Assembly: GCF_018350175.1 (NCBI RefSeq)
Contig: NC_058368.1
Coordinates: 19,160,001 to 19,224,000, forward strand
DNA length: 64,000 bases
Direction: 5' to 3'
From: Felis catus
Taxonomy: Eukaryota
Shown here: one piece after another, positions 1 through 61,742 of the stretch
Position numbering within the stretch: the first letter of the stretch is position 1
How the letters are laid out: every line of letters begins with the position of its first letter
Program-made: the position numbers and the translations under genes
The notes under the pieces: generated by a model
The model's input: the letters and a program-made list of their open reading frames with translations, nothing else
Database searches by the model: none
What the model was told of the DNA's origin: nothing

Positions 1-352
1 GGTTTTGTGCTGAGGGTTCCTCTGCTCCCTGTCCACTGCTGATTCCTCCTTGCTCCAAATTCAATTCTGTCCTCTCTTGGCCCCATACACTCAGGGGGTA
101 TGTCATCTCATACCTGGGCAATTTCATAGTTTCCTAAGTGTTTTGGCTGCTACAAAAAGTAACAGACTATTTCCTTTTATGACCTGGTCTCCTTGCCCCA
201 AATAGATCCAGAAAAGAAAGTTACTTTCTGAAGCTTGCAAAGACTTGAGATAAAGTGTCAAAGAAACTCTGTATTGCCATGAGCACTTTCCTGAATGAAC
301 TTCACAAATCTCAGTATCTCCCTTCCTCTATCTCCATGTATTTATATCTCAC

Positions 353-405
353 CTTTCATCAAAGGGTCAACACTAGTTACTTTTTTCCCCTGACTTGGGT
401 CATTG
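353..405 (-). CDS. TPTE2: Repeat exon, only 53 nt (apparent 1-nt deletion): NDPSQGKKVTSVDP...
   Basis: tttttaatcctttag| acceptor and AG|gtgaga donor are intact, but the length is not a multiple of 3. Confidence 0.55.
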
Positions 406-704
406 CTAAAGGATTAAAAATGCACATTTTAAGACTTCACATGTCTCTCTAGATTTGTTTAATTTTTATATGAAAATTAGGTACAATTTGGCTACAATTT
501 GTACTCAAGTGGACTTAAAAATAATTTAATCAGCCTTGGATACCTGGCATTCAATGTTTCCCTACAAATGAGGCTTTATATGCTTAAAATGAGACTCTTA
601 CTCCTGTGGACAAAAACTTAATAAATCAAGTTTGTGTACATTTTCTTGACTCCTGAATCTTCTCCTTGCTCCAAAATGGGTTTATCTCCTCTCTTTTTCT
701 ACTT

Positions 705-925
705 TATTTTTTTAAGCTTATTTATTTATTTTGATAAAGAGAGCACGAGAGAGCATGAACAGGGGAGGAGAAGAGAGAAAGAGAGAAAGACAGAGAATCC
801 CAAGCAGACTCCATGCTGTCAGTGCAGAGCCCAACACGGGGCTTAATCCCGGGAACCATGAGATCATGATCTGAGCAGAAATCAAGAGTCAGATGCTTAA
901 CTGACTGAGCCACCCAGGTGCCCCT
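705..925 (-). mobile_element. CanSINE (SINEC)
   Basis: Reverse tRNA-derived head (..gagccacccaggtgcccc), (GA)n and T-rich tail. Confidence 0.9.
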
Positions 926-1140
926 TTGTTCCGCTTCCGTTAGAGTCTCATACATGGGGCATTTTGACAATTTCCTAGGGGTTTGGGTGGCCACTAGCTA
1001 AGGCTGACAAACAGGAGAGGAATAAGATGCATCCCCTCATGACCTGTTTCTCTTTTATCCAACTCTGTCTAAACTGGAGACAAAGTCACTTTCGTATGCC
1101 ACAGTAATTTGGAAATGGTGTCAAAGACTCTCAGTGTCTT

Positions 1141-1610
1141 CTGGAAAATAGTACGGAGGTTCCTCAAGAAAATAAAAATAGAACTACCCTACAACCCAGT
1201 AGTTGTACAGCTAGGTATTTATCCAAAGGATACAAACATGCTGATTCGTAGGGGCACATGTACCCTAATGTTTATAGCAGCACTATCAACAATAGCTAAA
1301 GCATGGAAAGAGCCCAAATGTCCACTGTTTGATGAATGGATAAAGAAGATGTGGTATATATATATATACACACATACACATGTGTATATGTACATATATA
1401 TATGTATATGTATATGTACATATACATATGTATATACATATATATGTATATGTACATATATATACATACACATATATGTATATGTACATATACATATGTA
1501 TATATGTATATGTACATATACATATGTATATACATACATATATATGTATATGTACATATATATACATACACATGTGTATATGTATATACACATATACACA
1601 CATATGTATG

Positions 1611-1641
<31 letters not shown>

Positions 1642-2083
1642 GAATATTACTCAGTGACCAAAAAGAATGAAATCTTGCCATTTGCAACAATGTGGATGGA
1701 ACTAGGGTGTATTATGCTCATTGAAATAAGTCAGAGAATGACACGTATTATATGATTTCACTCATGTGGAATTTAAGAAACAAAACGGATAAACATAGGG
1801 GAAGGGAAGCAAAAATGAGATAAAAACAGAGAGAGAGACACAAACCACAAAAGACTTAAATGCAGAGAACAAACTGAGGGTTGCTGGTGGGGTGTTGGGT
1901 GGGGGATGGGCTAAATGGATGATGAGCATTAAGGAGGGCACTTGTTGGAATGAGCACCGGATGTTATGTGTAAGTGATGAATCACTAAATTCTACTCTTG
2001 AAATCATTATTATACTATATGTTAACTAGGATTTAAATTAAAAAAAAAAAAAACAAGGAAGACACAGAAGGAAAAAAAAAAAA
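1141..2083 (+). mobile_element. 5'-truncated carnivore L1 (ORF2 C-terminus + 3'UTR + polyA)
   Basis: Translates ..IELPYNP..MFIAALSTIAKAWKEPKCP; L1 3'UTR; polyA; degenerate TSD aaagac..tgtctt. Confidence 0.92.
1355..1641. repeat. (TA)n/(CA)n compound microsatellite within L1
   Basis: Alternating purine-pyrimidine TATATACA/TATGTA repeats. Confidence 0.95.
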
Positions 2084-2208
2084 GACACTGTAATGTCTTG
2101 AATGCTCCTGAAAATGAACCTCCAAATCTCAGTCTCTCTCCCTCCCACCGTCTCCATATGTGTCTTTATACATGTATAGTTCTGTTTACATCTCTATTTA
2201 TATCTCAC

Positions 2209-2262
2209 ATGTCCTTGATGATTTCACCAGAAGTTACTGTTGTCAGTTCACTCAAGGCAATG
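2209..2262 (-). CDS. TPTE2: 54-nt repeat exon: IALSELTTVTSGEIIKD
   Basis: tttttatcccctag| acceptor, AT|gtgaga donor, open. Confidence 0.72.
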
Positions 2263-3171
2263 CTAGGGGATAAAAATGGGACAGAGTCAGACACTACATG
2301 ATATTCTACATTAAATACTTCAGGTCAGTTAGTTAAAATTACTCTCCAAATTACAAGATAGTTAACTCTTTTAAAATTTACATATAAATCAGTTATTTGA
2401 AACCTGGTATGTCGTTTCCCCCTAGAAATGAGGCTTTTTGTCTTTGTAATGAATACCTTGCACCTGTCAAAAAAATTAATGACTCAAGATTTAGGTACAG
2501 TTCTTTACTACTGAATCTGACTCAATGTGTAACATTCTTTTTGGGTGGGATTTATTTATTTACCTCAGCGTAGGAATACACCTCTCTTGACCAATCTAAT
2601 TTCCTCATTTGCAAGTCTTTCCAACCCATCTGTGCTTTTTAGGAATCATGGATGTCTTTCCTGCCCCTCAGCTAATATCAAATCACTACAGGTCTGGGTC
2701 AATGACTCTATCCAATATGATGGTAGGTCTGGGCTTGGGCACCCCCAGCTGCAAATGGTGGCAAACATACACAGATCCAAGTCTATAGGCTCAATTATTT
2801 TCTGCTGAGGCACCCTCTGCATCCTGTCCCCCCATATGTTTGCTGTTTATAATTTACTAGTATTCTCTTTCCTACCCTAGTACAGACTCAGACACAGGCA
2901 ATCTGAAAATTTCCTATCAGTTTGGCTGCTCATAACCGACGGTGAAGACTGGGGGTAAGAGAACTCCTTCTATGACCCGTTCATCTTTCTTCTACCTTGA
3001 TTCAAAAATCCTTGATTCTATATTACATATAGAAGCTTACCATGAGAAGACTTTACAAACAATCAAGAGAACGGTGTATCCCCACGGGGAGTGAACATCC
3101 CAAATCCCATCCCAAATCCCAATATGTGTGCGTACAGACACATATTTATGTATGTATTCATCATAGCTCAC

Positions 3172-3225
3172 TTTGCATTGGAGAGTCCTTTGGAGGATAC
3201 TGCTGTCCATTCACTCATGGCAGTT
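3172..3225 (-). CDS. TPTE2: 54-nt repeat exon: TAMSEWTAVSSKGLSNA
   Basis: ttttaatcctttag| acceptor, AA|gtgagc donor, open. Confidence 0.72.
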
Positions 3226-4176: not shown

Positions 4177-4230
4177 ATTTCACTGGTGAATTCCTCATAG
4201 CCATCTGATTTCGATTCAGTCAGGGCCGTG
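4177..4230 (-). CDS. TPTE2: 54-nt repeat exon: TALTESKSDGYEEFTSE
   Basis: tttaatcctttag| acceptor, AT|gtgaga donor; the other two frames contain stops. Confidence 0.75.
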
Positions 4231-4924: not shown

Positions 4925-4957
<33 letters not shown>

Positions 4958-6149
4958 GATAGAAAATTACCTACATATACTACAGTGAGAGAACTTAGAA
5001 GCCGTATTGAAGACACTCCGGGGAGGAGTTAAGATGGGGAATGATTAGGGAGACCCCAAGCTTGTCTAGTCCCTTGAACACAGCTACATATTTATCAAAT
5101 CATTCTGAAACCAAAGAAATCAAACAGAGGTTTGAGAGAACAAAACTCGCGAGACTGCAAGTGGAAAAGTGACCACCCTTTAGGAGGTAGGAGTCATGGA
5201 GAATTTAATGGGGGAGCTGTTGTTCTGGGTACAGCTTGGGGAGGGATCCTGCTTGGAGAGGCTACTGCAAAGTAGTATAAGTAGCGGAACACAAAATCTC
5301 AACTTTTAGCAGTCTGCTACCACGGAGGAAGTTCCCGGCTTAAAGGTGCTCAAGTGGTGAAGTGGAGCAGAATCCCAGGAGTGACAGTGAGGTCTGAGAA
5401 TCCCTTGGGGCACAAGAAAGACACACGCCATGCCAACATACTGTGCTGTTTCCAGGCATAAGAGAGGGGACTCGCTCTGGCAGAGGGCAGCAAACAGGAG
5501 TGCTAGCTGTCTGCTCTGACATAAGCTCTGAACAGCGGTATATTCATGCCACTGCTTTTTTGGCACAGGCTGGCAAAAACCTGGTGAGACCCTCCCCCAG
5601 AGGAATACTGTGGGTCTGCCCCCACCGGGATCCCTAATATTTGGGATTTTTAAACTCAGTTGTAAGCCTGAATAAAAAAGCTTGGACATAGGCAGGGTGA
5701 ATGCAGGGTTCTGATGAAAACCGGGGACACAAGAAGGGTGATTAATTGCTCTTCTGTGAGGTTTCCCTGAAGAGTAAGTGGCGCAAGCATTTAGCTCCAG
5801 GGCTATAGAGCAGGGAGCTGCCATTTTCAATCCACTTTTCAGAGCCAAAAGGCTTCAGGGAGCAAAACAGCACCACCTAGTGGAGGTCAGAGCCACTTAC
5901 ACCAAGCCCCTCCCCTCGCACCCTAGAGGCGAATTTCCGCTCAAACAAGTCAGCCTGAGAATTAGTGCAGCAGGCTCCTCCTCCAGAAGACCAGCACCAA
6001 CAACTCACTTGCACCAAGTCTACTGGGCAAACAGATCTAGGAAACATAGGATCTAAATTCCATTTTACTTTTATTCTTTATGTTTTTATTATTACTTTTT
6101 TCATTCATTTTCTTATTTTTTTTAAATTCATCTTAAAATTTTTACTTTT

Positions 6150-6378
6150 TTGGGGTTGCCTGGGTGGCTCAGTAGGTTGAGCCTCCGACTTCAGCTCAGG
6201 TCACGATCTCTCAGCTTGTGAGTTCTAGCCTCACGTCAGGCTCTGTGCTGACAGCTCAGAGCCTGGAGCCCGCTTCGGATTCTGTGTCTCCCTCTCTCTC
6301 TGTCCCTAACCCACTCACACTCCATCTCTGTCTCTCTCAAAAATAAATAAACATTAAAAAAAGAAAATTAAAAAAAAA
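6150..6378 (+). mobile_element. CanSINE inside L1
   Basis: SINEC head and tail. Confidence 0.9.
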
Positions 6379-6659
6379 TTTACTGTTTTTTTTACATTTT
6401 TATGTATACATTTTTATATATACATATCCTCTTACTTTTTATCGTTTGTTTTCATTTCATTTCATTATATTATGTTTTAATTTGGGTCTAGACTCCTAAC
6501 AAGCCACCCAAAGCACACCCAGGATCTAGGGTGGTTGTTGTTTTTAATTTTTTTCTTTGTTTGTTTTCTTTAGTTTTTCTTTTCTTTTATGGACAAAATG
6601 ACAAGATGGAGAAACTCACCCCAAAAGAAGGAACAGGCAGTAGAACTCATGGTCAGAGA

Positions 6660-6887
6660 TTTTTTTTTTTAATTTTTTTTTTCAGCATTTTAATTTATTT
6701 TTGGGACAGAGAGAGACAGAGCATGAACGGGGGAGGGGCAGAGAGAGAGGGAGACACAGAATGGGAAACAGGCTCCAGGCTCCGAGCCATCAGCCCAGAG
6801 CCTGACGCGGGGCTCGAACTCCCGGACTGCGAGATCGTGACCTGGCTGAAGTTGGACGCTTAACCGACTGCGCCACCCAGGCGCCCC
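6660..6887 (-). mobile_element. Young SINEC_Fc-type SINE, TSD tcatggtcagagattt
   Basis: CpG-rich near-consensus copy; clear TSD. Confidence 0.93.
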
Positions 6888-7973
6888 TCATGGTCAGAGA
6901 TTTAATCAAAGCAGATATTAAGTAAGATGTCTCAACTAGAATTTAAAACCGCAATTAAAAGGATGCCAGCTGGGGTTGAAGAAAGCATAGAAGACAGCAG
7001 AGAATTCCTAAACTAAAATCTTGTCAGCCCCAAATTAAAAATGCTGTAACCAAGGTGCAATTTCAAATGGATGCCATGATAACGAGGCTGGATAGAGCAG
7101 AGCAGCGAATCAGTGATATAGGAGATAGAATTATGGAAAATAATGAAGCTGAAAAGAAGAGGGAAACAAAGACAAAAGATCATAATACAAGACTTAGAGA
7201 ACTCAGTGACTTATTAAAGAGGAATAACATTTGTATCATAAGAATCTCAGAGATGAAGAAAGAGAAAAGGGGGCAGAAGGTTTATATGAGCAAATTATAG
7301 CTGAAAACTTCCCTAATATGGAGGACATACATCTAAATCCAAGAAGCACAGAGAATCCCCATTAAGTTCAGCAAAAGCCAACCATCGCCAAGGAATACCA
7401 TAGTCAAATTCACAAAATACACAGACAAGGAAGAAATTATGAAAGCAGCAAAGGAAGAAAAGTCCTTAACCTACACGGGAAGACAAATCAGGTTTGTAGC
7501 ATATCTGCCCACAGAAACTTGGCAGGTCAGAAAAGAGTGGCAGGATAATTAAACATGCTAAATGGGAAAAATATGCAGCCAAGAATACTTTATCCAGCAA
7601 GGCTGTCATTCAGAATAAAAGGAGAGATAAAGAGTTTCCCAAACAAACAAAATCTAAAGGAGTTCATGACCCCCAATCCAGCCCTACAAGAAATTTGAAT
7701 GGGAACTCTTTGAGTGGAGAAAAACAAAACAAAACACCAAAAGCAACAAAGACTAAAAATGACCAGAAACACCAACTCCACAGGCAACACAATGGCACTA
7801 AATTCATATCTTTCAATAATCACTCTGAATGTAAATGGACTAAATGCTCCAATCAAAAGACATAGAGTATCAGAATGGATTAAAAAAAAAAAAAAAACAG
7901 ATACATCTCTATGCTGCCTACAAGACACCCATTTTAGATCTAAAGGCACCTTTAGGTCTAAAATTGCCTTTTA

Positions 7974-8560
7974 CCTTTTGTAGCAACATGGATGGAACTG
8001 GAGAGTGTGATGCTAAGTGAAATGAGCCATACAGAGAAAGACAGATACCATATGGTTTCACTCTTATGTGGATCCTGAGAAACTTAACAGAAACCCATGG
8101 GGGAGGGGAAGGAAAAAAAAAAAAAGAGGTTAGAGTGGGAGAGAGCCAAAGCATAAGAGACTGTTAAAAACTGAGAACAGGGGCGCCTGGGTGGCGCAGT
8201 CGGTTAAGCGTCTGACTTCAGCCAGGTCACGATCTCGCGGTCCGTGAGTTCGAGCCCCGCGTCGGGCTCTGGGCTGATGGCTCAGAGCCTGAAGCCTGGT
8301 TCCGATTCTGTGTCTCCCTCTCTCTCTGCCCCTCCCCCGTTCATGCTCTGTCTCTCTCTGTCCCAAAAATAAATAAGCGTTGAAAAAATAAAATTAAAAA
8401 AAAAAACAAAAACTGAGAACTGAGGGTTGATGGGGGGTGGGAGGGAGGGGAGGGTGGGTGATGGGTATTGAGGAGGGCATCTTTTGGGATGAGCACTGGG
8501 TATTGTATGGAAACCAATTTGACAATAAATTTCATATATTAAAAAAAATAAAATAAATAA
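7974..8560 (+). mobile_element. Young L1 3' fragment nested in the older L1, TSD aaattgcctttta
   Basis: Felid L1 3'UTR (..ggaaaccaatttgacaataaatttcat), polyA, TSD at ~7961 and ~8560. Confidence 0.9.
8180..8410 (+). mobile_element. Young SINEC_Fc-type SINE inside the nested L1
   Basis: ggggcgcctgggtggcgcagtcggttaagcg head; TSD aaaaactgagaac. Confidence 0.93.
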
Positions 8561-9745
8561 AATTGCCTTTTAAAAGTGAAAGTGAGGGGATGGAGAACCA
8601 TAGATCAGGCTAACTGAGGTCAAAAGAAAGCTGGAGTAGCCCTACTTATATCAGACAAACTATATTTGAAACCAAAGGCTAACATGAAATGAAGAATAGG
8701 TCTACCCTAATAATTAAGGGGTCTATCCATCAAGAAGATCTAACAATTATAAATATTTATGTCCCTAACTTGAAAGAACCCAAATATATAAATCAATTAA
8801 TAACAAACATAAAGAAACTAATTTATAATAATACAATATTATTAGGGGACTTTAACACCCCACTTACAACAGTGGACAGGTCATCTAAGCAGAAAATCAA
8901 CAAGGAAACCACATCTTTGAATGACACACTGGAACAGATGGACTTAACAGATATATTCAGAATATTTCAACTTAAAGCAGGAGAATACACATTCTTTTCA
9001 AGAAAACATGGAACATTCTCCAGAATATATCATGTATTGGGTCACAAATCAGCTCTCAAAAAGTACAAAAAGATCAAGCCCATACCACACATTTTCAGAC
9101 CACAGTGGTACAGAATTTGAAATCAACCACAAGAAAAAATATGAAAACAACATGAGTACTTGGAGATTAAAGAACATCCTATTAAAAAATGAATGGGCTA
9201 ACTAAGAAATTAAAGAGGAAATTAAAAAGTACATGGAAGCCAATGAAAATGAAAATACGACAGTCCAAAATCTTTGTGGTGCAGGAAAGGCAGTCAGAAG
9301 AGGGAAGTATATAGCAATCTAGGCCTTCCTAAAGAAGAAATGAATGTCTCAAATACACAACCTAACATTACACCTAAAAGGGCTGGAAAAAGAAAAGCAA
9401 ATAAAGCCCTAAATCCGCACAAGAAAGGAAATAATGAAGATTAGAGCAGAACTCAATGATATCGGAAAAAAACAAAAAATGTAGACCATAACAGTGAAAC
9501 TAGGAGCTGGTTCTTTTAAAGAATTAACAAAATTGGTAAACCCCTAGCCAGATGTCTCAAGAAGAAAAAAGAAAAAAACAAAATAGATAAAAAATAAGAA
9601 TTAAAGAGGAGAGATCACAACTAACACCACAGAAATACAAACAACTATAAGAGAATATTATGAGCAAGATATGCCAACAAATTGGGCAATGAGCAAGAAA
9701 TGGATAAATTCCTAGAAACATATAAACTATCAAAACTGAAATAAA

Positions 9746-9967
9746 GGGGCACCTGGGTGGCGCAGTCGGTTAAGCGTCCGACTTCAGCCAGGTCACGATC
9801 TCGCGGTCCCGGAGTTCGAGCCCCGCGTCAGGCTCTGGGCTGATGGCTCAGAGCCTGGAGCTTGTTTCCGATTCTGTGTCTCCCTCTCTCTGCCCCTCCC
9901 CCGTTCATGCTCTGTCTCTCTCTGTCCCAAAAATAAATAAACATTGAAAAAAAAATTAAAAAAAAAA
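9746..9967 (+). mobile_element. Young SINEC_Fc-type SINE
   Basis: Near-consensus head; TSD aaaactgaaata. Confidence 0.93.
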
Positions 9968-11262
9968 CTGAAATAGGAAGAAATAGAAAACTTGAATAGA
10001 TCTGTAAGTAGTAAAGAAATTGAATCAGTAATCAAAAATCTCCCAACAAACAGGGTCAGATAGCTTCCCAGGAAAATTTTACCAAACATTAAAGAAGAAT
10101 TAATACCTAATCTTCTCAAACTATTTAAAAAAATAGAAATAGAAGGAAAACTTCCAAGCTTATTCTACGAGGCCAGCATTACCTTGATTCCAAAACTAGA
10201 CAAAGACCCCACTAAAAAGGAGAATTACAGACCAATATCCCTGATGAACACTGATGCAAAAATTCTCAACAAGATACTAACGAGATACTGGCACAAAAAC
10301 AATCAATGGAATAGAATAGAGAACCCAGAAATGGACCCTCAAATGTCTGGCCAACTAAATCAAAGCAGGAAAGAATATCCAACGGAAAAAAGATGGTCTT
10401 TTCAACAAATAGTTGAAGAATGGGAAAACTGGACAGCAACAGGCAGAAGAATGAAAACGGACCACTTTCTTACACCACACAAAAATAAACTCAAAATGGA
10501 TGAAATACCTAAAGGTAAGACCATAAAAAATCCTAGAAGAGATAGCAGGCAGCAACCTCTTTGACCTCAGTGGCAGCAATTTCTTAGACATGTCTCCCGA
10601 GGCAATGGAAACAAAAGCAAAATGAACTATTAGAACCTCATCCAGATGAAAAGCTTCTGCACAATGGAAGGAAACAATTAACAAAACTATAAGGCAATTG
10701 ATGGAATAGGAGAAGATTTTTGTAAATCTTCTGATAAAGTGTTAGTATTCACAATCTATAAAGAATATATCAAACTCAACATGAAAAAAACAAACAACCC
10801 AGTTCACACGTAGGCATAAGTCATGAGCAGACACTTTTCCAAAGAAGACATCCAGATGGCTAGCAGACACATGATGCTCAACATCACTCATCATCAGGGA
10901 AATACAAATCAAAACCACAATGAGGTACCACCTTGCACCTGTCAGAATGCCTAAAATTAATGACTCAGGAAACAACAAATGTGGGCAAGGATGCAGAGAA
11001 AGGGGAAGACTTTTGCACTCCCGGTAGGAATGTAAACTGGTGCGGCCACTCTGGAAAACAGTATGGATGTTCCCCAAAAAATTAAAAATAGACTACCCTA
11101 CAACCCAATAATTGTACTACTCAATATTTATTCAAGGATACAAAAATGCTGATTTGAAGGGGCACATGCACCCCAATGTTTATAGCAGCACTATCAACAA
11201 TAGCCAAAGTATGGAAAGAGCCCAAATGTCCATCAACTGATGAATGGCTAAAGAAGATGCGG

Positions 11263-11319
<57 letters not shown>

Positions 11320-11850
11320 GAATATTACTTAGTCACCAAAAAGAATGAAAGCTTCCATTTGCAATGACGTGGATGGAACTAGAGTGCACTATGCTAAGCA
11401 AAAGAAGTCAGTCAGCGAAAGACAAAAATCATATGATTTTACTCATATGTGGAATTTAAGAAACAAAACAGATGAACATAGGGGAAGGAGAGGCAAAATA
11501 AAATAAGATAAAAACAGAGAGGCAAACCTTAAGAGACAACTAAATATAGAGAAAAAAACAGGGTTGCTGGAGTGGAGCTGGTGGGGGGATGGATTAAATG
11601 GGTGACAGGCATTAAGGAGGACATTTGTTGGAATGAGCACAAGGTGTTATATGTAAGGGATGAAGCACTAAATTCTACCCCTAAAACAAACACTACACTA
11701 TATATTAACTAACTTGAATTTAAATAAATAAAAAAGACACCCTGTGGATGCACCTGTCATTTTAAAAATCTCATATCTCTCTTTGTTGTTTTATGTGTGT
11801 ATGTGTCTAGATTATACATACAATTTTAAATTTATGCATTCATATCTCAC

Positions 11851-11904
11851 ATTTCATTGGTGGATTCCTCATAGTTTTCTAATGTCAGTTCATTCTGGGC
11901 ATGG
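11851..11904 (-). CDS. TPTE2: 54-nt repeat exon: HAQNELTLENYEESTNE
   Basis: Same splice sites and sequence as 14063-14116. Confidence 0.75.
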
Positions 11905-12884
11905 CTAAAGAATCAAAAAGGTACATAGTCAGACACAATGTGTAATTCTAGATTTCCTTTTTTCCATTCAAATAGCTACAATTATTCTACAGTATGAGTT
12001 GGTTGAGTTTTAAGAGTCCAAGTGCAAATCAATAATCTGGAACTTGTGTGTCATTTCATATTAGAAATGAGGGTTTATATGGTGGTAATGATTATCTTAG
12101 GCCCATGAATAGTGAACACATCAAGACTTAGGTAAAGTGTTCTTAGTCATTACCCTAACCCAATATGTAACTACCTTTGGTGGTAGAATTTCAATTTGAC
12201 TTCAGTTTATAGGTTTATAAGTACATATCCCTTTGACTCCAACTAATTGCATGATTGGCAATTTCCTCCATCCCCTGCTTACTCTTCATGCTTCATGGCT
12301 GTCTTTCCAGACCCTCAGACAGGTTAAGTAACTAAAGACCTGAGGCAGAGGCTCCCTCCAATATGGTGGTGGGTTTGGGGCACTAGTCTCACATGGCAGC
12401 AGAGTTCTGGAGTATGCAGGACAGACCCAGTTTCAATTAGCTCCTTTCTTCCTGCTGAGGGCTTCTCTGTCCACTGGCTACTGCTACCTCCTACTTTGTC
12501 TTAAGTAGGATTCTGTTCCTTCTTCACCCAATCTAGTAAGACTCATACATGGACATTCTGGAAATCTCCAAAAGGTTTTGGCAGCTAGTTACTAGGAGGA
12601 GAAAGGATTCTTCTTATGACCTGCTCCTCTTTGATCCAAATAGATCCAAAAAAAGGCAGGAAGTTACCTACAGGTGCTACAGTGAGAAGATTCAGAAACA
12701 TTCAAAGACACTGTATTGTCATGGATGATCCTGAGAATGCATTTGGAAACCTCATCCCTTTCATTCATTGTATTTATGTTTGCATACATGTCTTTGTGCA
12801 TCTGTGTTGATATAAGTATATTCATACATATGTGCATATACATATATATAAATCTATATTTATCTTTGCTCGTTTATATCTCAC

Positions 12885-12938
12885 ATTTTACTGGTGACTT
12901 CCTCATAACTGTCTGATTTCCATCCAGTCAGGGTTATG
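12885..12938 (-). CDS. TPTE2: 54-nt repeat exon: ITLTGWKSDSYEEVTSK
   Basis: tttaatcttttag| acceptor, AT|gtgaga donor, open. Confidence 0.75.
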
Positions 12939-13116: not shown

Positions 13117-13580
13117 TTAAGAGTCTTTTATGGTTTGCCTCCCTCTCTGTTTGAAACTATTTTTCCCCTTCCCTTCCCCCATGGCCTTCTGTTAAGTTTC
13201 TTAAGTTCCACATATGAGTGAAAACATATATCTGTCTTTCTCTGACTGGCTTATTTCACTTAGTGTAATACCCTCCAGTTTTATCCACGTTGTTGCAAAT
13301 GGCAGGATTTCATTCTTTCTCATTGCTAAGTAGTATCCCATTGTATATATAAACCACATCTTCTTTATCAATTCTGCAAAGGAGAGGGGAAAATGGGTGA
13401 TGTGGATTGAGGAGGACACTTGTTGGGATGAGCACTGAGTGTTAAATGTAAGCAATAAATCATGGGAATCTACCCCCAAAACTAAGAGCACACTGGGTAC
13501 ACTGTAGGTTAGCTAACTTAACAATAAATTATATTAATAATAATAAAATAAAATGAAATGAGAAGAGCTCCCCCCAGAAA
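13117..13580. mobile_element. Short 5'-inverted (twin-primed) L1 3' end, TSD agaaatgaggcttta
   Basis: ~13117-13370 is L1 3' sequence on minus; ~13375-13560 is the terminal 3'UTR on plus. Confidence 0.85.
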
Positions 13581-14062
13581 GAAATGAGGCTTTATATGGG
13601 ATGCTAATAACTACCTTAAGCCTATGAAAATTTATGCATCAATCTATAAGAAGTTCTTTGCTATCACTCTAAACCCAGTGTGTAACAGCCTTTTGTAGTA
13701 GAATTTATTTCAAACTCAACTTCAGTTTGGAGGAAACAATCCCTCTTATCCATTTAAATTCCTGATTCTGAGGCCCTTCCCTCTTCTCCTGACTTTCATC
13801 TAAGGGTTTGGCTCCTGCTAAGAGAAACAAATCCATTCAGAGGAAGAAGCATTCCTCTTGGGCCCTCCTCTTTTAGATTTAACTAAATTTAAAAGAAGTT
13901 ACCTAGATATACTACAGTGAGAGAACTTAGGAGCAGTATTGAAGATACTCTATTGCTGTGGATACTCCCGAGAAGGTTTTTTACAAATATTAATCTCTCT
14001 ATTGTTTTATGTATTTGTTGAGATTATACATACAATTTTAAATTTATGCATTCATATCTCAC

Positions 14063-14116
14063 ATTTCATTGGTGGATTCCTCATAGTTTTCTAATGTCAG
14101 TTCATTCTGGGCATGG
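14063..14116 (-). CDS. TPTE2: 54-nt repeat exon: HAQNELTLENYEESTNE
   Basis: tttgattctttag| acceptor, AT|gtgaga donor; only the phase-2 frame is open; identical to 11851-11904. Confidence 0.75.
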
Positions 14117-15118
14117 CTAAAGAATCAAAAAGGTACATAGTCAGACACAATGTGTAATTCTAGATTTCCTTTTTTCCATTCAAATAGCTACAATTATTCT
14201 ACAGTATGAGTTGGTTGAGTTTTAAGAGTCCAAGTGCAAATCAATAATCTGGAACTTGTGTGTCATTTCATATTAGAAATGAGGGTTTATATGGTGGTAA
14301 TGATTATCTTAGGCCCATGAATAGTGAACACATCAAGACTTAGGTAAAGTGTTCTTAGTCATTACCCTAACCCAATATGTAACTACCTTTGGTGGTAGAA
14401 CTTATTTCAATTTGACCTCAGTTTATAGGTTTATAAGTACATATCCCTTTGACTCCAACTAATTGCATGATTGGCAATTTCCTCCATCCCCTGCTTACTC
14501 TTCATGCTTCATGGCTGTCTTTCCAGACCCCCAGACAGGGCTAAGTAACTAAAGACTTGAGGTAGAGGCTTCCCCCCAGTATAACAGTAGGTTTAGGATG
14601 GAGTCTCAGCCTAATACAGTAGCAGAACTCTTGAGAGTCATGGACACATCAGTCTATTATCTCCATTGTTTCCTCCTGGCTTCAATGTGCCGCCCACTGT
14701 AGACTCTTCCTTGTTCCAAATACCAATCTCTCCTCTCTTGGCTCACCCTAGTAGAGTCTCATATACAGGCCATCTGGTAATTTCCTCAGGGTTTGGCTGC
14801 TACCCACTAAGGCTAACAAACATGCTTAGAGGAAGAAGCATCCCTTTCATGACCTGCTCCTATTTTAAGTGAATCTGAAAATAATAGTTATCTACAATGT
14901 AAATGTGAGAAGACTTAGAAAAAGTGTCAGACATTCTGTATTGCTTTGGATGTTTCTCAGGTGAATTTCACAAATTCTATTTCTTTGTGTTATATATCTG
15001 TGTGTGTGCAGGTGTATGAGTGTTGTGTGTTCGTGTTGACAGGAGCATGTATATGTGTGTGTGTATATATTATATACTTATATATATATACACATATCTT
15101 TATGCCTTTTAAGCTCAC

Positions 15119-15172
15119 ATTTCATTGTCGTCTTCCTCATAGGTTTCTGATGTCAATTCATTAGGGTTTGGG
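15119..15172 (-). CDS. TPTE2: 54-nt repeat exon: PNPNELTSETYEEDDNE
   Basis: ttttcaatcctttag| acceptor, AT|gtgagc donor, open in phase 2-2. Confidence 0.75.
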
Positions 15173-16931
15173 CTAAAGGATTGAAAAGGTACATGATCAG
15201 ATACCACATATAATTCTACACTTATTTTTTTTGTTCAAATAACTGTAATTATTCTATTTTTATGAACTGTTTGATCTTTAAACATTCATGTAGATATCAG
15301 TAAATTGAACCTGGTATATATTTTTTTATTAGAAATAAGGTATTAGACTTCTGGGCAAGATGGTGGAAAACAAGGATCCTGAACTCACCTCATTCCATAG
15401 ATACACCTAGATAACACCCATATCAGTATAAATAGCCCAAAAAATAACCCAAGACTGACAGAGGAGACTCTTCATTCATAAATGTAGGGAATAGGCCACA
15501 TCAAAGAGGGTAAGAAGGGCAGAGACACAGTCAGGAGCTAAATGGACCCACAGGACTCCTCATGGGAGGGAGGGATGCTGTGGGCACATCGAAGGTAGAG
15601 AAGACTTCACACCATGCATCCAGGCATGGGAAACATGTACAGGAAAGTCAAATCACCAGAACATTAGGCTTTAAAAACCTGGTGGGGCGGGGGAGGCGGT
15701 GTATCAACCTTACTAGTTCTTAGAATCAGTAGGACTTAACACCTGGAACTTTAAAAATCAGTGGGCTTGGCTCTGGGAGAGCTGGAAGGCAATATGAAAT
15801 AAGTACCTGCCCTTAAAGAGACAGCACAACCAACAGCTTCCCAAGATAGAGCGCAAACATAGCAGTTTGTAAAACACTTGTGGTATACAGGAAGATTTAC
15901 TTACTCATCTCAGAGCATGTGCTCAAGGGAGAGGGACCTTTGGGAAACTTGTCCAGGAACAAAAGTGCTGGCAGGTGCCATTTCCCTTCCCCACCTCTCA
16001 GCCAAGTTACATGGATACCTGCAGGAACCAGTGCAGCACAAACACTCTCCACCTAGCTTGCTAACTGTGCCATGCACCCATATTCTCCTGCTGATGCTCC
16101 CCCACCATCTCAGACTGGACAAGAGTTTTCTAGGAGCGGCTGCAGGTCCCTTCCCACACTGGACCATTGTGGACCCAGTACCCCTCTCCCGCATTCTCCT
16201 GCAGACCTATCCTCAGCAGGAGTCCCTCCAAAGCTGTGTCACAAGCAGTATGCAAGCAGCCCTGACACTGACCAGCACCACTACAAAGTGACTCCTGCCC
16301 TGGGGAGGGAAAGATAACCACACACACCAGTTCAAGTGCACTGGCAGGGCAGGCCCTGCCCACCAACAAAAGCTTCTCGGGGAACAACAAGGCAGAGTGC
16401 TCTGCAGTTTGGTGCTACAGCAACTCTGGCAAATGCCTGGTCTGATCCCCTGAAGCCCATGGTGGCCACAGACTGGCCTACTAACAACACAAATAATACA
16501 CCCTGCCCACAATAGGCAAATAGAGCCATTGCAAATGACTAGGCTGAAGGCAAACACAGCTCAGTCACAACAGTAGGGCACATGTAACACACAGAAGACA
16601 CCCCTGAAGTGCCAGGTTCTGGTGAACAGGGGACACCACTGCAGCACACAACAGGACCTCTTCTTTCAAGAGCAAGAGATGTAGCTACTTTCTCAACACA
16701 TAGAAACAGACTCGGAGAGTTAAACAAATGAGGAGAGAGAAGAATATGTCCCAAATGAAAAAAAAAAGGACAAAAATCACTGCAATAGAGCTAAATAAAA
16801 TAGAGATAAGTCACATGCCTGAGAGAATTTAAAGTAATGGTAATAAAGATACTCATTGAACTTGAGAAAAGAGGTAGGACTTCAGAGAGACCTTCAAGAA
16901 AGAGAAAGAAACCATAAAAAGGAACCAATCA

Positions 16932-17120
16932 GGGGCATCTGGGTGGCTCAGTTGGTTAAGTGTCTGACTTCAGCTCAGGTCACAATCTCATGGTTTGTGA
17001 GTTTGAGCCCCACATTGGGCTCATTGCTGTCAGCACAGAGCCCACTTGGGATCCTCTGTTCCCTCTCTCTCTGTCCCTCCCGTGCTCATTCTCTTTCTCT
17101 CAAAATAAATAAATTTTAAA
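16932..17120 (+). mobile_element. CanSINE in L1 ORF1
   Basis: SINEC head and tail, TSD aaa.gaaccaatc. Confidence 0.88.
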
Positions 17121-17178
17121 AAAGAACCAATCGGAATGAAAAATTCAATAACTGAAGTTAAAAGTACACTAGAGGGAG

Positions 17179-17365
17179 GGGCACCTGAGTGGCTCAGTCA
17201 GTTAAGCACCTGACTCTTTATTTCAGCTTAGGTCATGATCCCAAGGTCATGGGATTGGGCCCCGCATTAGACTCTACACTGAGCATGGAGTCTGCTTGGG
17301 ATTCTCTTTCTCTCTCTCACTCTCTCCTCCACTCACACACTCACTAAAAAAAAAAAAAAAAAAAA
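17179..17365 (+). mobile_element. CanSINE in L1 ORF1
   Basis: SINEC head, polyA, TSD cactagagg. Confidence 0.88.
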
Positions 17366-19196
17366 CCACTAGAGGAAATAAGTACTAGAAGAAGAAGAGT
17401 GGATCAGCAACCTGGATGGGAGAGTAATACAAAGCAATCAAGCTGAACATGAGAGAGGAAAAACAAACAATAAAAAAAGGAGAATATATTAAGGGAACCA
17501 GTGCCATCATCAAGCATAATAACATTTGCATTATAGGAATCCCAAAAGTAGAAGAGAGACAAAAGGGGGCAGAAAATCTATTTGAATAAATAATAGTAGG
17601 AAAATTTCCTAACCTGGAGAAGGAAACTAAAATCCAGATCCAGGAGGCAGAGAGAACCCCCAACCAAATCAACCCAAGGAGGTCCACACCAAGACACATA
17701 GTAATTAAAATGCCAAAAAGTAGTGATAAGGGAGAATTTATAAAGAAGCAAAAGAAAAATCAAACAGTTCTATACGAAAGAAACCCCATAAGGCTATTAA
17801 CTGATTTTTCAACAGAAATTTTGTAGGTTAGAAGACAATGGCTGATATATTAGTGCTGAAAGAAAAAAACTTGCAAGCAAGAATACTCTATCCATTAAGG
17901 CCATCATTCAGAATGGAAGGAGAAATCAAGAGTCTCCCAAACAAAAGGTTAAACAAATTCTACATCACTAAACCAACCCTACAAGAAATTTAAAGGGGAC
18001 TCTGAGTGACAAAAAAAGAGATCATAAGCAGGAATAAGACAAGTAGGAAGCACAAACGCAGTAAAATTAAGTACATCTATAAAAATCAGCTAAGGGATTC
18101 ACAAAATAAAAGATGAAAAGTATGACACCATATACCTACAATGTGGGGGAAGAGTAAAAATTTAGTGCTTTTAGAATGGGTTCAAATTTAAGCAACCATC
18201 AACTTAATATAGACGGCTATATGTATAAGATGTTATATATAAACCTAATGGAGCCACAAACAAAAACCAGTAATAGATATGCAAAAAATAAAGAGAAAGG
18301 AATCCAGGTGTGTCGCTAAGGAAATCCAACTAACCATGAGAGAAAAAGGAAGAGAAGAAACGAATAGAGCAATAAAACCACTATAAAGTAACAAAACGGT
18401 AGTTAAGCACATACGTATCAATAATTACTTTGAATGTAAACAGACTAAATGCTCCTGTCAAAAGACATAGGGTGATGGAATGGATAAAAAAAGCAAGACT
18501 CATTTATTGGCTGCCTACAAGAGACACATGTCAGAACTAAAGACACATGTAGATTCAAAGTATAGGGATGGAAAGCATTTGTCATACAAATGAAAGTGGA
18601 AAGAAAGCTGGGGTGATAATACTTATAGTAGACATAATAGATGTTAAAACAAAGACTGAAAAGAGACAAAGAAAGACATTACCATAATCATGAAGGGAAT
18701 AATTCAACAAGAAGATATAACAATTGTAAATATGTATGCATTCAACATGGGAGTACCCAAATACATAAAGTAATTCATAACAAACATAAATTAATTGATA
18801 ATAATTCAGTAAAAGTAGGGGACTTCACCACCCCACTTACATCAAAGGACAGATAATCTAAACAGAAAATCAAATAAGGAAACAGTGGCTTTAGTCCAGA
18901 TGAATCTAAAAGATCTTTCAGAACATTTCATTTCATCCTAAAACAGCAGAATACACATTTTCCCCAATAACACATAGAACAGTCTCCAGAATCAATCCCA
19001 GGTTAGGCCACAAAACAAGTCTCAACAAATTAAAAAACACTGAATGCATACTATGCATTTTTGACCACAGCACTAAGAAACCAGCACATCAACCACAAGA
19101 AGAAATCTGGAAAGAACACAAATACATGGAGGTTAAATAACATGCTACTAAACAATAAACAGGTCAACCAAAATAAAATCAAAAAGGAAATTAAGA

Positions 19197-19390
19197 GGGG
19201 CACCTGGGTGGCTCAGTCAGTTAAGTGACCAACTTCAGCTCAGGTCATGATCCCCAGGTTTGTGGGTTCAAAGACCCACAATGAGTTTTGTGCTGACAGC
19301 TCAGAGCCTGAGCATTCTGTATCTCCCTCTTTTTCTGCCCCTTCCCTGCTCATACTCTGTCTCTCCTTCTCTCAAAAATAAATAAAACCT
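19197..19390 (+). mobile_element. CanSINE in L1 ORF2
   Basis: SINEC head and tail, TSD aaaaggaaattaag. Confidence 0.88.
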
Positions 19391-21415
19391 GTATAAAAGG
19401 AAATTAAGTAAGTAGCAGAAAGAGATATTAAGAAAACAGTCCCATTTACAACTGCACCAAAAATAATAAAATAAAATACCTGGGAATGAACTTAACAAAG
19501 GAGATAGAAGACCTGTACTCTGAAAACTATGAAACACCTGATGAAAGAGACTGAAGATGACAAAAACAAACAGAAAAATACTCCATGCTCATGGATTGGG
19601 AGAATATTGTTAAAATTTCTACCCAAAGCAACCCGCAGATTCAGTGCAATCTCCATGAAATTACCAACATTCTTCACAGAACTAGAAAAAAGAACCCTAA
19701 AACGTATATGATATGGAATCACAAAAGACCCCTGAGTAGCCAAAGCAATCTTGAAAAAGAATGAAACTAAAGGTATCACAATCCCAGATTTCAAGATATA
19801 CTACAAAGCTGTAGTAATCAAGAAAGTATGGTACTGGCATAAAGACAGATACATAGGTCAGTAGAACAGAATCAAGAGGGCAGAAATAAGCCCATGATAA
19901 TACAGTCAAATTAATTTTCAACAAGGAGGCAAGAATATCCAATGAGAAAAGAGACAGTCTTTTTAAGAAATGAATGGTGTTTGGAAAATTTGACAGTTAC
20001 CTGCAAAAGAATGAAACTGAATAACTTTGTTATTCCATACATAAAAATAAGCTTAAAATAGATTAAAAACCTAAATGTGAGACCTGGAACCATAAAAATC
20101 CTAGAAAAGAGCACAGGCAGTAATTTCTGGTATTAGCTGTAGCCACATCTATTTAGATATTTCCCTGAGGCAAGGAAAACAAAAGAAGTATAAACTATTG
20201 GGATCACACCAAAATAAAAAGCTTCTGCACAGTGAAGGAAACAATCGACAAAACTAAAAGACAACCTACTAAATGGGAGAAGATGTTTGCAAGTGACATA
20301 TCTGATAAAGGGTTAGTATCAAATATGGTCAAGTAACTTCAGGCCTAGGGCAGGGGCTCCATCCAATATGTGAAGAACTTATACATCTCAACACCAAAAA
20401 CCAAATAATCCAATTAAAATATGGGCAGAAGACATGAACAAACATTTCCCCAAAGAAGATATCCAAATGGCCAACAGACATGTGAAAAGATACTAAACAT
20501 CATTAATCATTAGGGAAATGCAAATCAAAGCCACAATGAGATATCACCTCACACCTGTCAGAATGGCTAAAACCAAGTATCTATTGATAGTTGAATGAAT
20601 GAAGAAGGTGTGGTATATGTACACAATGGAATATTACTCAGCGATAGAAAATAATGAAATCTCACCATTTGCAACATGGATGGATCTAGATGGCATAGTG
20701 CTAAGCAAAACAAGTCAGAGAAAGACAAATACCCTATGATTTCACTCATATGTAAAAATTCAAGAAACAAAACAAACCAACAAAGAAAAATGAGACAAAA
20801 AAAAATAATCAGACTCCTAAACCAGATTCCTAACTAGGCCAGAGGGGAGGTAGGTGGGGGGTAAAGGGGATTAAGAGTACACTCATCATGAGGAGCACTG
20901 AATAATTTACAGAATTGTTGAACCACTATATTGTACACCTGAAACTAATATAACACTGTATGTTAAATATACTGGAATTGAAAAATTGAAAAGAAGAAAT
21001 GAGACTTTGTATGGTGGTAATTAATATCTTAGGACTGTGAAAATAGTAAGCATCAAGGTTTAAGTAATGGTCTTTACTTTTCCCTAATCTCAATAACTAA
21101 CAGCCTTTTGTGGTGGCATTTATTTCACTTTAACTTCAGTTTATTAAGTACACATCCCTCTTACTCCATCTAAATGCCTGATTCTCAAGTCCTTCCATCA
21201 CCTCCTTACTTTCACCCATCATGGTCATCTCTCCTGCTTCTCAGACTGGGTGAAGCCCTACAGGCCTGAGGCAGTGGCTGTATCCACTATAGTAGTGGGA
21301 TTGAGTTTGAGGGTCACTTCACATAGTGGCAGAGCTCTGGAGGGTATGGGGCAGATTCCAGTCCACTGCCATCATTCTCCTTGCTCCAAATAGGAGTCTC
21401 TCCTCACTTGTCACA

Positions 21416-21861
21416 TACTATAAGTTGGATATAGTCCCATCAAAACTGAAATGTTGAAATCCTATCTCCTGGAACTCAGAATGTGACTTTGTCGGAAATA
21501 GGGTTGCTGAAGATGTTATTAAGATATAGTCAAACTGGTTTGGGGGGCTCCTAATCCAGTCTGACTGGATAGCCAAAGGAAAAATTTAGACACAGACACA
21601 CATACTTCACCCATGCAGAGATTAAGGTAGTAACTGGAGCAATGATGCTACATACCACAGAACAGCAAAGATTGACAGCAATCACCAGAAGCTAGGAGAC
21701 AGGTATGCACTAGATTCTTTCTCACAGCTCTCAGAAGGAAACAACCCTGCTGACATCCTGATATCAACTTCTAGCCTCTAAGACTGAGACAATAAACTTC
21801 TGTTGTTTAAACTATTCCGTTTTATGATATTTTATTACAGCATCCCTGGCAAATGAATACA
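21416..21861 (+). mobile_element. MaLR solo LTR (MLT1-like)
   Basis: Typical motifs gaatgtgact..ggaaatagggt, ccagaagctaggaga, cagaagga..caaccctgctgaca, acaataaacttctgttgtttaa, ..aatgaataca. Confidence 0.8.
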
Positions 21862-22090
21862 GCCCAATCTAGTAGAATCTCATATACAGCAATCTGACAG
21901 CTTTCCCAAGAGTTTTGGCTGCTGGTAACTCAAGACAGGAGGGCCTGTTCCTCCTCTATCCAATTAGATAAAAAAAAAATGTTAATACAGAAGTTGATAT
22001 TGCCAACACTTTAGAAAGAGTGTCCAAGAAACTCTGCACTGAATATCTTGTACTTTTATATATACATATACCATACATATACATATACAT

Positions 22091-22130
<40 letters not shown>

Positions 22131-22133
22131 CAC

Positions 22134-22187
22134 CTTTTACTGGTGACTTCCTTATCAGTTACTGATGTCAATTTATTTCGATCAGAA
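22134..22187 (-). CDS. TPTE2: 54-nt repeat exon: SDRNKLTSVTDKEVTSK
   Basis: ttttatcctttag| acceptor; donor AG|gtggtatgt (two GTs 3 nt apart); open. Confidence 0.7.
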
Positions 22188-22784
22188 CTAAAGGATAAAA
22201 TGTATCTGATCAAACACCATGTGATCCCTTACTTACTTTTTTTCATTCAAATTAGCTACAATTTATCTACACTTGATAATGTGGTTGAACCCTCAAAAAT
22301 TCTTATGTAATTTGGTTATCTGGAAAGAAGTATTTCATTTTCCCCCAGAAATTCAGCTTTATATGGTAGAAATGAAATTCTTAAGCTTGTACAAGAATCA
22401 TTCATGGATAAAGATTTAAAAACATTTCTTTACTACTGAACTGAACCCCAGTGTTTATGTGCCTTTTGTGCTTGCATTTATTTCAAATTCAACTATATTT
22501 TCATGCTTCATGAAGTTTTTCTTGCTCTTCCACTATGGGCAAGTAACTTCACGCCAGGGCAGGGGCTCCATCCAATATGATGGTGAGTTTGGGTTTAGAA
22601 CAACTAGCCTCACAAGTAGCAGAGCTCTGAAGGGTGATCTCTTAGCTCCTTTATTTTCTGCTGAGGGTGCCTCTGCTCCCTGTCCACTGCTTTTGCCTAT
22701 TTGCTTCCCAGTAGTATTCTCTCCTCCCTTGTTCCACACAAGTAGAATGTCATATACAATCACTGTGATAATTTCCCAACTGTT

Positions 22785-22990
22785 TTTAATTTTTTTTAAT
22801 CTTTTTTATTTGAGAGACTGAGTGCAAGTGGTGGAGGGGCAGAGAGGAAGAGGGAGACACAGAATCTGAAGGAAGCTCCAGGCTCCGAGCTGTCAGCACA
22901 GAGCCCAACAAGGGGCTTGAACTCAGGAACCGCAAGTTCGTGACCTGGGCCGAAGTCGGACACAACCAATTGAGCCACCCAGGTCCCCCA
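22785..22990 (-). mobile_element. CanSINE, TSD tttcccaactgtttt
   Basis: Reverse SINEC; flanking direct repeat. Confidence 0.9.
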
Positions 22991-23202
22991 GTTTCCCAAC
23001 TGTTTTGACTGCTAATCCCCAACGCTCACAAACAGACCCATAATAAATGTTCTCCCTCTTTGATCTGTTCCTTCTTTTTCTATTTAGATCCAAAGCAGAC
23101 AAAAAATTACATACAGAAGCTAACAAGCTATCATGAACAAGCCCTAATGCCACTGATGCTTCCAAGTGGTTTTCCCACCCAGATGACAGAAAATCAACTC
23201 AC

Positions 23203-23259
23203 CTATTGTTGATATTGTGGCCAGAGGACACCAAAGAGGACATTGGAGTGTTGTTATAT
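23203..23259 (-). CDS. TPTE2: 57-nt exon: YNNTPMSSLVSSGHNINN
   Basis: tttttttccctttggcag| acceptor, AG|gtgagt donor, open in phase 2-2. Confidence 0.7.
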
Positions 23260-23440
23260 CTGCCAAAGGGAAAAAAATACACAAAAAATAAAGTCAGATG
23301 ATGTGGAAGGAAATCACGCTCTTTCCTGAAAGGAATTTCAGACACGAAAAGTAAATCACACATCACAAATCCTGAAGAGAGGTGACAGAAACTGAAGCAA
23401 CAGCTTTGAGTTACCACAGTGTAACCTGTAAGCCAGCCTC

Positions 23441-23482
<42 letters not shown>

Positions 23483-23844
23483 ACACAGGTACATATTTAC
23501 TGGAAATAGAAGCAGCAATGATGATTAATATCCTTGCTTCTTTCCCAATTTCTCTGCAATTCTGGAAACTGCTGAATAAATTTGGGAAGAGAGACAGACA
23601 CACAGACAGACAGACATGAGAGTAAATGGATGGGGAAGTGGATCCAGGTAACGGTTGATGAAAGGATACAGATTTAATGGAAAGAAATGCCCAAACAATG
23701 AGAATTTCAATGGCAAGGCCAGTCCCTAGTTGCTATTTGGTAGGGTAGAAACAAGAATATGCCTAAATTTTGTTCACAAATGTTTCTTGAAAGTGGAGCA
23801 CATCATTAGAATGGCTTTTCTTGCTGTTAATCCTTTAACAACTT

Positions 23845-60893: not shown

Positions 60894-61742
<849 letters not shown>

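What the first reader, a model, noticed from the sequence alone, without database searches (positions are those of the whole stretch)
1..23800. Exons multiplied together with their introns: a ~1-kb degenerate tandem unit
Seen: the intronic DNA between exons is itself paralogous, with the same motif order and a ~960-1060-bp period where no TE intervenes. Inference: the array grew by unequal crossing-over of whole exon+intron units. The 54-nt length and frame were kept while intron copies accumulated indels, which suggests purifying selection on exon length and frame. An ancient MLT1-like LTR in one unit (21416-21861) implies part of the array is old, while other copies are recent.
Basis: partly seen in the sequence, partly recalled or inferred. 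Interest (0 to 1): 0.7.

Follow-up and report, generated by a model that had tools for sequence, protein, structure and literature searches.

The report
Repeated exons of sperm phosphatase TPTE2
This is the front end of the cat's sperm voltage-sensing phosphatase gene (TPTE2), where a 54-base exon was copied again and again together with its intron, building a floppy acidic tail whose length differs between mammal groups and between splice forms; the copying mechanism is known from other testis genes, and what the tail does is not shown.

Summary
Nine whole exon+intron units lie on the minus strand in 353-23202, a cut tenth at 1-352, and one more at 51821-52781. All 45 intron pairs beat their shuffles. 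The gene is felid TPTE2, the voltage-sensing phosphatase. The 54-nt phase-2 exons are spliced, with skipping, in 2 of 4 runs. They encode a disordered, acidic N-terminal tail. One intron is a chimera of two others, the footprint of unequal crossing-over. The 'recent' copy is a 510-bp gene-conversion tract: a Panthera-only amino-acid change sits in both copies. Exon length is constrained (9 of 10 are 54 nt), but exon sequence is no more conserved than intron (61% each). Two copies look unused. Other placentals expanded the same kind of 18-aa unit independently: horse 2-16 doublets, mustelids, macaque, pangolin. Human TPTE2's three 54-nt exons are already in print, and DAZ grew the same way. Verdict: a new member of a known kind; the tail's role is untested.

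The parts
1..352 (-). gene-5' part of the intron of a further unit; its exon (read as YDSSELKRVT... in cat TPTE2) lies left of the window
   Evidence: profile hit 342-4; loose end at 2209 in run X5 has 0 matches in the window
353..405 (-). 53-nt frameshifted copy of the exon (one base short); apparently skipped
   Evidence: skipped in run X5; absent from cat models P0001, P0043
2209..2262 (-). 54-nt phase-2 exon (IALSEL...)
   Evidence: spliced joint 2262/3172 in X4 and X5; in P0001
3172..3225 (-). 54-nt phase-2 exon (TAMSEW...)
   Evidence: joints on both sides; 100% match to P0001
4177..4230 (-). 54-nt phase-2 exon (TALTES...)
   Evidence: joint 3225/4177
11851..11904 (-). 54-nt exon (HAQNEL..., second copy), identical to 14063-14116; skipped in run X5
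11905..12884 (-). chimeric intron: junction of the unequal crossover near 12310-12380
11809..12314 (.). gene-conversion tract, copy A (1 mismatch and one 4-nt indel against 14021-14530 in 510 columns)
12885..12938 (-). 54-nt exon (ITLTGW...), sister of 4177-4230 (81% identical)
   Evidence: joined directly to 4230 in X5
14021..14530 (.). gene-conversion tract, copy B
14063..14116 (-). 54-nt exon (HAQNEL..., first copy)
15119..15172 (-). 54-nt exon (PNPNEL...)
21414..21861 (.). LTR-like insertion interrupting one unit (MLT1-like by recall; not tested against a library)
   Evidence: unit profile breaks at 21421/21862
22134..22187 (-). 54-nt open-frame exon (SDRNKL...) with a poor donor (GTGGTA); absent from all stored felid models, orthologue used in horse and bear models
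23203..23259 (-). 57-nt phase-2 exon (YNNTPM...) heading the array; its flank 23176-23768 is paralogous to 52756-53284
   Evidence: joined directly to 4230 in X4
51821..51874 (-). 54-nt exon (DDLDEF...) of the far unit, same gene
52782..52820 (-). 39-nt phase-2 exon (IMDSSD...), paralogue of the 57-nt exon
56231..56290 (-). first coding stretch of cat TPTE2 (MQRLKR...)
   Evidence: tblastn 100% over 20 aa
4405..4640 (+). SINE at unit site A (13-bp target duplication)
13117..13595 (.). L1 3' fragment at unit site A (17-bp target duplication)
15340..21004 (+). L1 at unit site A (decayed target duplication)
5017..11740 (+). near full-length L1 with nested SINEs at unit site B
1130..2081 (+). L1 3' fragment at unit site B

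Best explanation
The array is the N-terminal repeat region of TPTE2, the mammalian voltage-sensing phosphatase of sperm. An ancestral cassette (about 0.9-1 kb intron + 54-nt phase-2 exon) was multiplied by unequal crossing-over before the laurasiatherian radiation and has kept turning over in each lineage. Each exon is symmetric and 18 codons long, so any gain, loss or skip keeps the frame. The product is a disordered, acidic, Ser/Thr-rich tail ahead of the voltage sensor. Shown: gene identity, splicing and skipping, intron paralogy, one crossover junction, length constraint. Inferred: recurrent conversion of one 510-bp tract, and its use for a block deletion in Prionailurus. Inferred for function: the tail most likely acts as a length-tolerant spacer or trafficking segment. 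Selection removes frameshifts in used exons but cares little for residues or copy number, so the array behaves as a mostly neutral 'accordion'.
For: Exon-peptide profile gives 27 hits; 21 carry a TPTE2 or PI(3,4,5)P3 3-phosphatase name from felids, best E 2e-32. Window exons match cat P0001 at 100%. Exact CT..AC joints in 2 of 4 runs, plus three skipping joints from loose ends. 45 of 45 intron pairs beat shuffles. Chimeric intron and two-unit duplication at about 85-87%. All 9 two-copy Panthera models (3 species) have Ile in both HAQNEL copies; all 9 two-copy non-Panthera models have Thr in both. Exon and intron identity are both 61%; pooled dN 0.56. N-terminus against core identity: 93 vs 98.7% (tiger), 63 vs 85% (dog). 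pLDDT below 50 for residues 17-209. N-terminal length runs from 34 to 657 aa with periods 18, 34 or 36. Human TPTE2 exons 2-4 are 54, 54, 54 nt (PMC3229583 supplement S1D).
Against: Nothing here tests the tail's function. Pooled NG86 dN/dS among paralogous exons is 1.6 (dS 0.35, below intron divergence; pairs not independent; 17 codons each), which could mean positive selection instead of drift. Retention of 54-nt exons across placentals and near-perfect homogenisation in horse, mustelids and macaque could mean the repeats are selected. Copy numbers for other species come from predicted gene models, not from their DNA, so intron paralogy outside this window is assumed. Run X6 gave only intronic contigs and X24 no reads; X4 and X5 are 'RNA by guess', though their joints are exact splice joints.
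Confidence: 0.62

Rival explanations
1. Same origin, but the tail is a functional dial: the number and net negative charge of 18-aa units, set by lineage and by exon skipping, tune VSP trafficking or its access to PI(4,5)P2 in sperm, and evolve under reproductive selection.
For: Repeated independent expansions. dN/dS above 1 in a crude pooled test. Several skip patterns in RNA and in RefSeq isoforms. Replacing the mouse N-terminus and S2-S3 loop together with Ciona parts raised surface expression in oocytes (PMC11344830, passages). Cat N-terminus has 50 acidic against 17 basic residues in 237.
Against: Residues drift at the intron rate. Two exons have dropped out in cats. N-terminal models of 34-72 aa exist in marmoset, human and vampire bat. 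The mouse experiment changed two regions at once, and its authors state that N-terminal swaps did not alter voltage dependence of other VSPs.
Confidence: 0.25
2. The unit is a tandem or dispersed repeat of non-genic origin (old transposon or satellite) whose copies were exonised one by one.
For: Exon sequence is no better conserved than intron. No repeat library could be searched, so the intron body is not formally excluded as an old transposon.
Against: All copies share one register, one acceptor and one phase. The unit occurs only inside this gene within the window. No Rfam match. Orthologous exons occur in other orders and human has 54-nt exons at the same place.
Confidence: 0.05
3. The near-identical 510-bp pair is an assembly or polishing artefact, or a very recent duplication, not gene conversion.
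For: The one read-laying run did not cover 11.8-14.5 kb, so the tract was not checked against reads. Run X5 shows the exon at 11904 skipped.
Against: The flanking parts of the same duplication are about 85-87% identical. Both copies exist in Felis, Acinonyx, Leopardus, Neofelis and Panthera models, with a lineage-specific residue shared by both copies in three Panthera species.
Confidence: 0.08

Closest known systems
TPTE/TPTE2 (TPIP), mammalian voltage-sensing phosphatase
   Same: It is this gene: exons match Felis catus models at 100%; PTEN_C2 and phosphatase domains; HCKGGKGR active site as in human TPTE2 and mouse Tpte; human gene has three 54-nt exons at the front.
   Different: The cat uses 8 54-nt repeat exons inside the window and one more beyond it, against 3 listed for human TPTE2. 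Two further cat copies look unused. No Pfam family covers the repeat.
DAZ repeat region (exon 7 units, 24 aa, 8-24 copies)
   Same: Testis gene; intragenic amplification and pruning of exon-bearing units; an intron-7 probe detects the repeat units; copy number varies among primates (PMC2322974, passages).
   Different: DAZ is Y-linked and primate-limited. This array is autosomal by synteny, far older (61% identity, star-like tree), phase 2, and sits on a membrane enzyme.
RBMY SRGY boxes, SAGE1 47-aa units, NBPF/Olduvai, LPA kringle IV-2 (all recalled, not read here)
   Same: Whole exon+intron cassettes multiplied in tandem by unequal exchange.
   Different: Different genes and unit sizes; not homologous to this unit as far as recalled; not tested.
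CanSINE insertion hotspots in Feliformia
   Same: Independent insertions with overlapping target duplications at one site (PMC4084570, passages).
   Different: There the site is orthologous across species; here it is paralogous across units of one genome.

Membership tests
TPTE/TPTE2 (VSP) | Exons encode part of a protein annotated as TPTE2 | tested here: met
TPTE/TPTE2 (VSP) | Four-helix voltage-sensor domain, PTEN-like phosphatase with HC(X)5R, C2 domain | tested here: met
   On cat model P0043, whose core lies outside the window: PTEN_C2 E 1.8e-33 and phosphatase hits; motif at residue 495; four long helices 250-382. Ion_trans did not reach E 0.01 for P0043 but did for 5 of 5 other orthologues.
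TPTE/TPTE2 (VSP) | Synteny near ATP7B | tested here: inconclusive
   Earlier notes put ATP7B about 302-355 kb beyond the window; the gene order in between is recalled, not seen
TPTE/TPTE2 (VSP) | Testis or sperm expression; voltage-dependent activity | not testable with these tools
   Run tissues are coded; mouse data only from PMC11344830 and PMC13039310 passages
Tandem exon+intron cassette arrays (DAZ type) | Introns paralogous along their length | tested here: met
   45 of 45 pairs
Tandem exon+intron cassette arrays (DAZ type) | Symmetric, frame-preserving exons that are spliced | tested here: met
   9 of 10 are 54 nt and open in one frame; joints in 2 of 4 runs
Tandem exon+intron cassette arrays (DAZ type) | Unequal exchange or conversion between units | tested here: met
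   chimeric intron and 510-bp tract; shared Panthera residue
Tandem exon+intron cassette arrays (DAZ type) | Copy-number variation within a species | not tested
   Only between-species and between-model variation seen
Dispersed transposon family | Copies scattered outside the locus; match to a repeat library | tested here: inconclusive
   No scattered copies within the window; no genome or repeat library available
MLT1 LTR (21414-21861) | Match to an MLT1 consensus, TG...CA ends, 5-bp target duplication | not testable with these tools
   No library; likeness to MLT1C is recalled; no exact target duplication of 7 bp or more found

The most novel reading that the evidence does not exclude
The N-terminus of mammalian VSP is a placental-wide exon 'accordion' that has expanded and homogenised independently in cats, mustelids, horse, pangolin, macaque and rabbit, and is trimmed further by exon skipping. 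Its length and charge set where VSP sits and how strongly it removes PI(4,5)P2 in sperm, making it a fast-evolving fertility dial. In cats one 510-bp tract acts as a standing conversion and deletion hotspot.
Probability: 0.2. Interest if true: 0.72.

Novelty: new member of a known kind. Interest (0 to 1): 0.4.

Why it matters
Mammalian VSP shapes sperm phosphoinositides and fertility in mice (PMC11344830, PMC13039310, passages), yet it has been hard to express, and its N-terminus had to be swapped out to get it to the surface. This region turns out to be a modular exon array that differs widely among mammals, which gives natural length variants to test what the tail does. As genome evolution it is a clean, old, autosomal example of cassette multiplication with a visible crossover junction, a recurrent conversion tract, dying exons and repeated transposon hits at copied target sites. 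The mechanism itself is known.

Tried and rejected
My first reading, that the unit at 51.8-52.8 kb starts a separate paralogous gene, was wrong: it is an exon of the same gene. Before any search I considered collagen, MUC19, TSBP1, SAGE1 and CCDC7 from memory and dropped them once named the gene. Candidate extra exons inside the unit (near the 'site B' motif and short AG..GT stretches) were not supported: the joints skip them. No whole genome was held. Rfam gave 0 matches. Earlier findings near or alike gave nothing; one search gave an unrelated protist VSP. The stop-codon test was weak (P about 0.056). The transposon-site test depends on the number of usable sites per unit: P 0.25 for 8 sites, 0.05 for 15, 0.008 for 30, so it is suggestive only. 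A cat-only repeat matrix found 0 units above threshold in human TPTE2, marmoset, rat, Peromyscus and manatee and 1 in mouse, so sequence homology of primate and rodent units to the cat's is weak; it rests on period, position and exon size. It also gave 0 units in 14 of 15 unnamed distant representatives. BLASTP of the manatee model against 58018-58080 found no alignment. The unit tree is mostly unresolved (2 of 7 inner branches well supported). Paper searches found no description of the repeat array; the main TPTE papers (Tapparel 2003, Guipponi 2001, Okamura 2018) appeared only as reference-list entries and were not read.
Full report
What is there. The window is felid DNA rich in L1 and SINEs. 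A scan for 54-nt exons and a profile search found 10 copies of one exon on the minus strand: 405-353, 2262-2209, 3225-3172, 4230-4177, 11904-11851, 12938-12885, 14116-14063, 15172-15119, 22187-22134 and 51874-51821. I removed 8 transposon insertions by hand and aligned the units. The introns are paralogous: 45 of 45 pairs beat the best of 30 shuffles, median local identity 70.5%. The four units with no transposon have periods of 963, 1005, 1034 and 1056 bp. The rest are 659-961 bp after removal. A unit profile hits only these places and one 52-bp fragment inside an L1.

The gene. Earlier notes placed ATP7B about 300 kb beyond the window, which from recalled gene order suggested TPTE2. A profile of 8 exon peptides with in-frame flanks then gave 27 proteins among 1535 candidates. 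21 carry a TPTE2 or PI(3,4,5)P3 3-phosphatase name from felids; the other six are a truncated-name Prionailurus model, two short leopard-cat models, a bear model and unnamed or partial entries of the same gene. Cat model P0001 maps to the window at 100%: 56290-56231, then the 39-nt exon, 51874, the 57-nt exon at 23259, 15172, 14116, 12938, 11904, 4230, 3225 and 2262. It leaves out 22187 and 405. The voltage sensor, phosphatase and C2 domain lie left of the window (on P0043).

Splicing. I laid 4 of the 24 listed runs on 2100-4390. Two (X4, X5; two studies; RNA by guess) show exact joints 2262/3172 and 3225/4177 with CT..AC ends. X6 gave only intronic contigs and X24 no reads. Loose ends, compared by eye, show three skips. 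X5 joins exon 12938 straight to 4230. X4 joins the 57-nt exon straight to 4230, skipping five exons. X5 joins 2262 to an exon that is not in the window and reads as the next repeat of P0043, so the 53-nt copy is skipped. A second loose end at 2209 in X4 was a mixed consensus and I did not interpret it. RefSeq isoforms of other cats show the same skips.

How it grew. Intron 11905-12884 is a chimera: its gene-5' half matches intron 3226-4176 (73-98% per bin) and its 3' half matches intron 14117-15118 (97-100%). This is what an unequal crossover between two units leaves, here doubling a two-exon block. Most of the doubled block is about 85-87% identical, but 510 columns differ by only 1 mismatch and one 4-nt indel. 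The block is doubled in Felis, Acinonyx, Leopardus, Neofelis and Panthera models. All 9 two-copy Panthera models (lion, tiger, jaguar) have Ile in both copies of the HAQNEL exon; all 9 other two-copy models have Thr in both. So the tract was homogenised at least once on the Panthera stem. The cat's two differences in 510 bp are fewer than a copy as old as the cat family should show, judged roughly from 7% N-terminal amino-acid difference to tiger; this second event is an inference. The Prionailurus models seen (P0011, P0037, P0023) lack exactly one HAQNEL and the ITLTGW exon, which is what exchange between the two tracts would delete; skipping is the alternative. The flanks of the 57-nt and 39-nt exons are also paralogous (score 240 against shuffled best 42), so a two-exon module was doubled early.

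Age. The unit tree is star-like. The unused cat exon 22187 has clear counterparts in horse and bear models and weaker ones in mole, hedgehog and whales, so the units were distinct before these orders split. Human TPTE2 lists exons 2-4 as 54, 54, 54 nt (PMC3229583, supplement S1 read whole). The MLT1 label is recalled only.

Selection. 9 of 10 exons keep 54 nt and one open frame, with 1-5 stops in each other frame. In 167 intron windows of 60 columns the commonest length was shared by 35% of copies on average and never by 90%. Residues are not conserved: median exon and intron identity are both 61%. Pooled NG86 over 7 of the 10 exons (dropping the 53-nt copy, the unused 22187 and one identical twin) gave dN 0.56, dS 0.35; this is crude. 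Lack of stops alone is weak (P about 0.056).

Other mammals. Among 52 models examined N-terminal length runs from 0 (partial models) to 383 aa, with strong periods in horse (34), mustelids and macaque (36), pangolin and sea lion (18). Eight further horse models hold 2-16 copies of the doublet, up to 657 aa. Rodent tails are long but show no clear period. These are gene models, and their introns were not seen.

Transposon sites. Of 7 non-LTR insertions in the array, 3 fall at one unit position (167-178 nt before the acceptor) and 2 at another (110-127 nt after the donor). Sister units carry different elements at the first site, so these are independent. Chance is 0.008-0.25 depending on assumptions. 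Hotspots of this kind are known in cats (PMC4084570, passages).

What it does. AlphaFold gives pLDDT below 50 for residues 17-209 and a confident core. No Pfam family covers the repeat. In mouse, VSP shapes sperm phosphoinositides, and swapping its N-terminus and S2-S3 loop raised surface expression (PMC11344830, passages); knockouts are subfertile (PMC13039310, passages). My best reading (0.62) is a length-tolerant disordered spacer or trafficking tail under selection for frame only. A selected length-and-charge dial is the main rival (0.25).

Novelty. The gene, the cat exons and human 54-nt exons are on record, and DAZ grew the same way (PMC2322974, passages). Searches found no account of this array, its intron paralogy or its lineage-wise expansion. 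The library lacks most subscription papers, and the main TPTE gene-structure papers were seen only as references, so the claim is weak. PMC10769328 (passages) covers other TPTE2 isoforms. Verdict: new member of a known kind, interest 0.4.

Noticed in passing
window 20319-20370: A 52-bp piece of the intron unit sits inside the L1 (E 4.7e-11); by eye it is closest to 22536-22585, 2.2 kb away, so possibly a templated insertion after the L1 arrived.
   Followed up: partly
window 58020-58033: X-box-like (RFX; label recalled) 14-mer, 1 match, 0 in 100 shuffles (pattern was fitted after seeing it), inside a candidate first exon with a donor near 57981; fits testis transcription.
   Followed up: partly
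window 57981-58100 and 57401-57488: Candidate 5' untranslated exons with good donors; one reading frame resembles the manatee model's N-terminus by eye, but BLASTP found no alignment.
   Followed up: partly
window 23260-51820: A 28.6-kb intron made almost wholly of stacked L1 pieces and SINEs separates the two early modules; most L1 lie antisense to the gene.
   Followed up: no
window 60858-61739: About 880 bp of GA/GAAA purine repeat upstream of the gene.
   Followed up: no
window 52820-52818: NAGNAG acceptor: cat models differ by one residue here (P0001 against P0043/P0049).
   Followed up: partly
horse models P0305-P0316: Several TPTE2-like models on one horse contig with 2-16 copies of the 34-aa doublet: the gene itself may be multiplied in horse.
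   Followed up: partly
Panthera and Neofelis models: They lack the IALSEL exon used in Felinae, and lion lacks 4 residues of the 57-nt exon.
   Followed up: no
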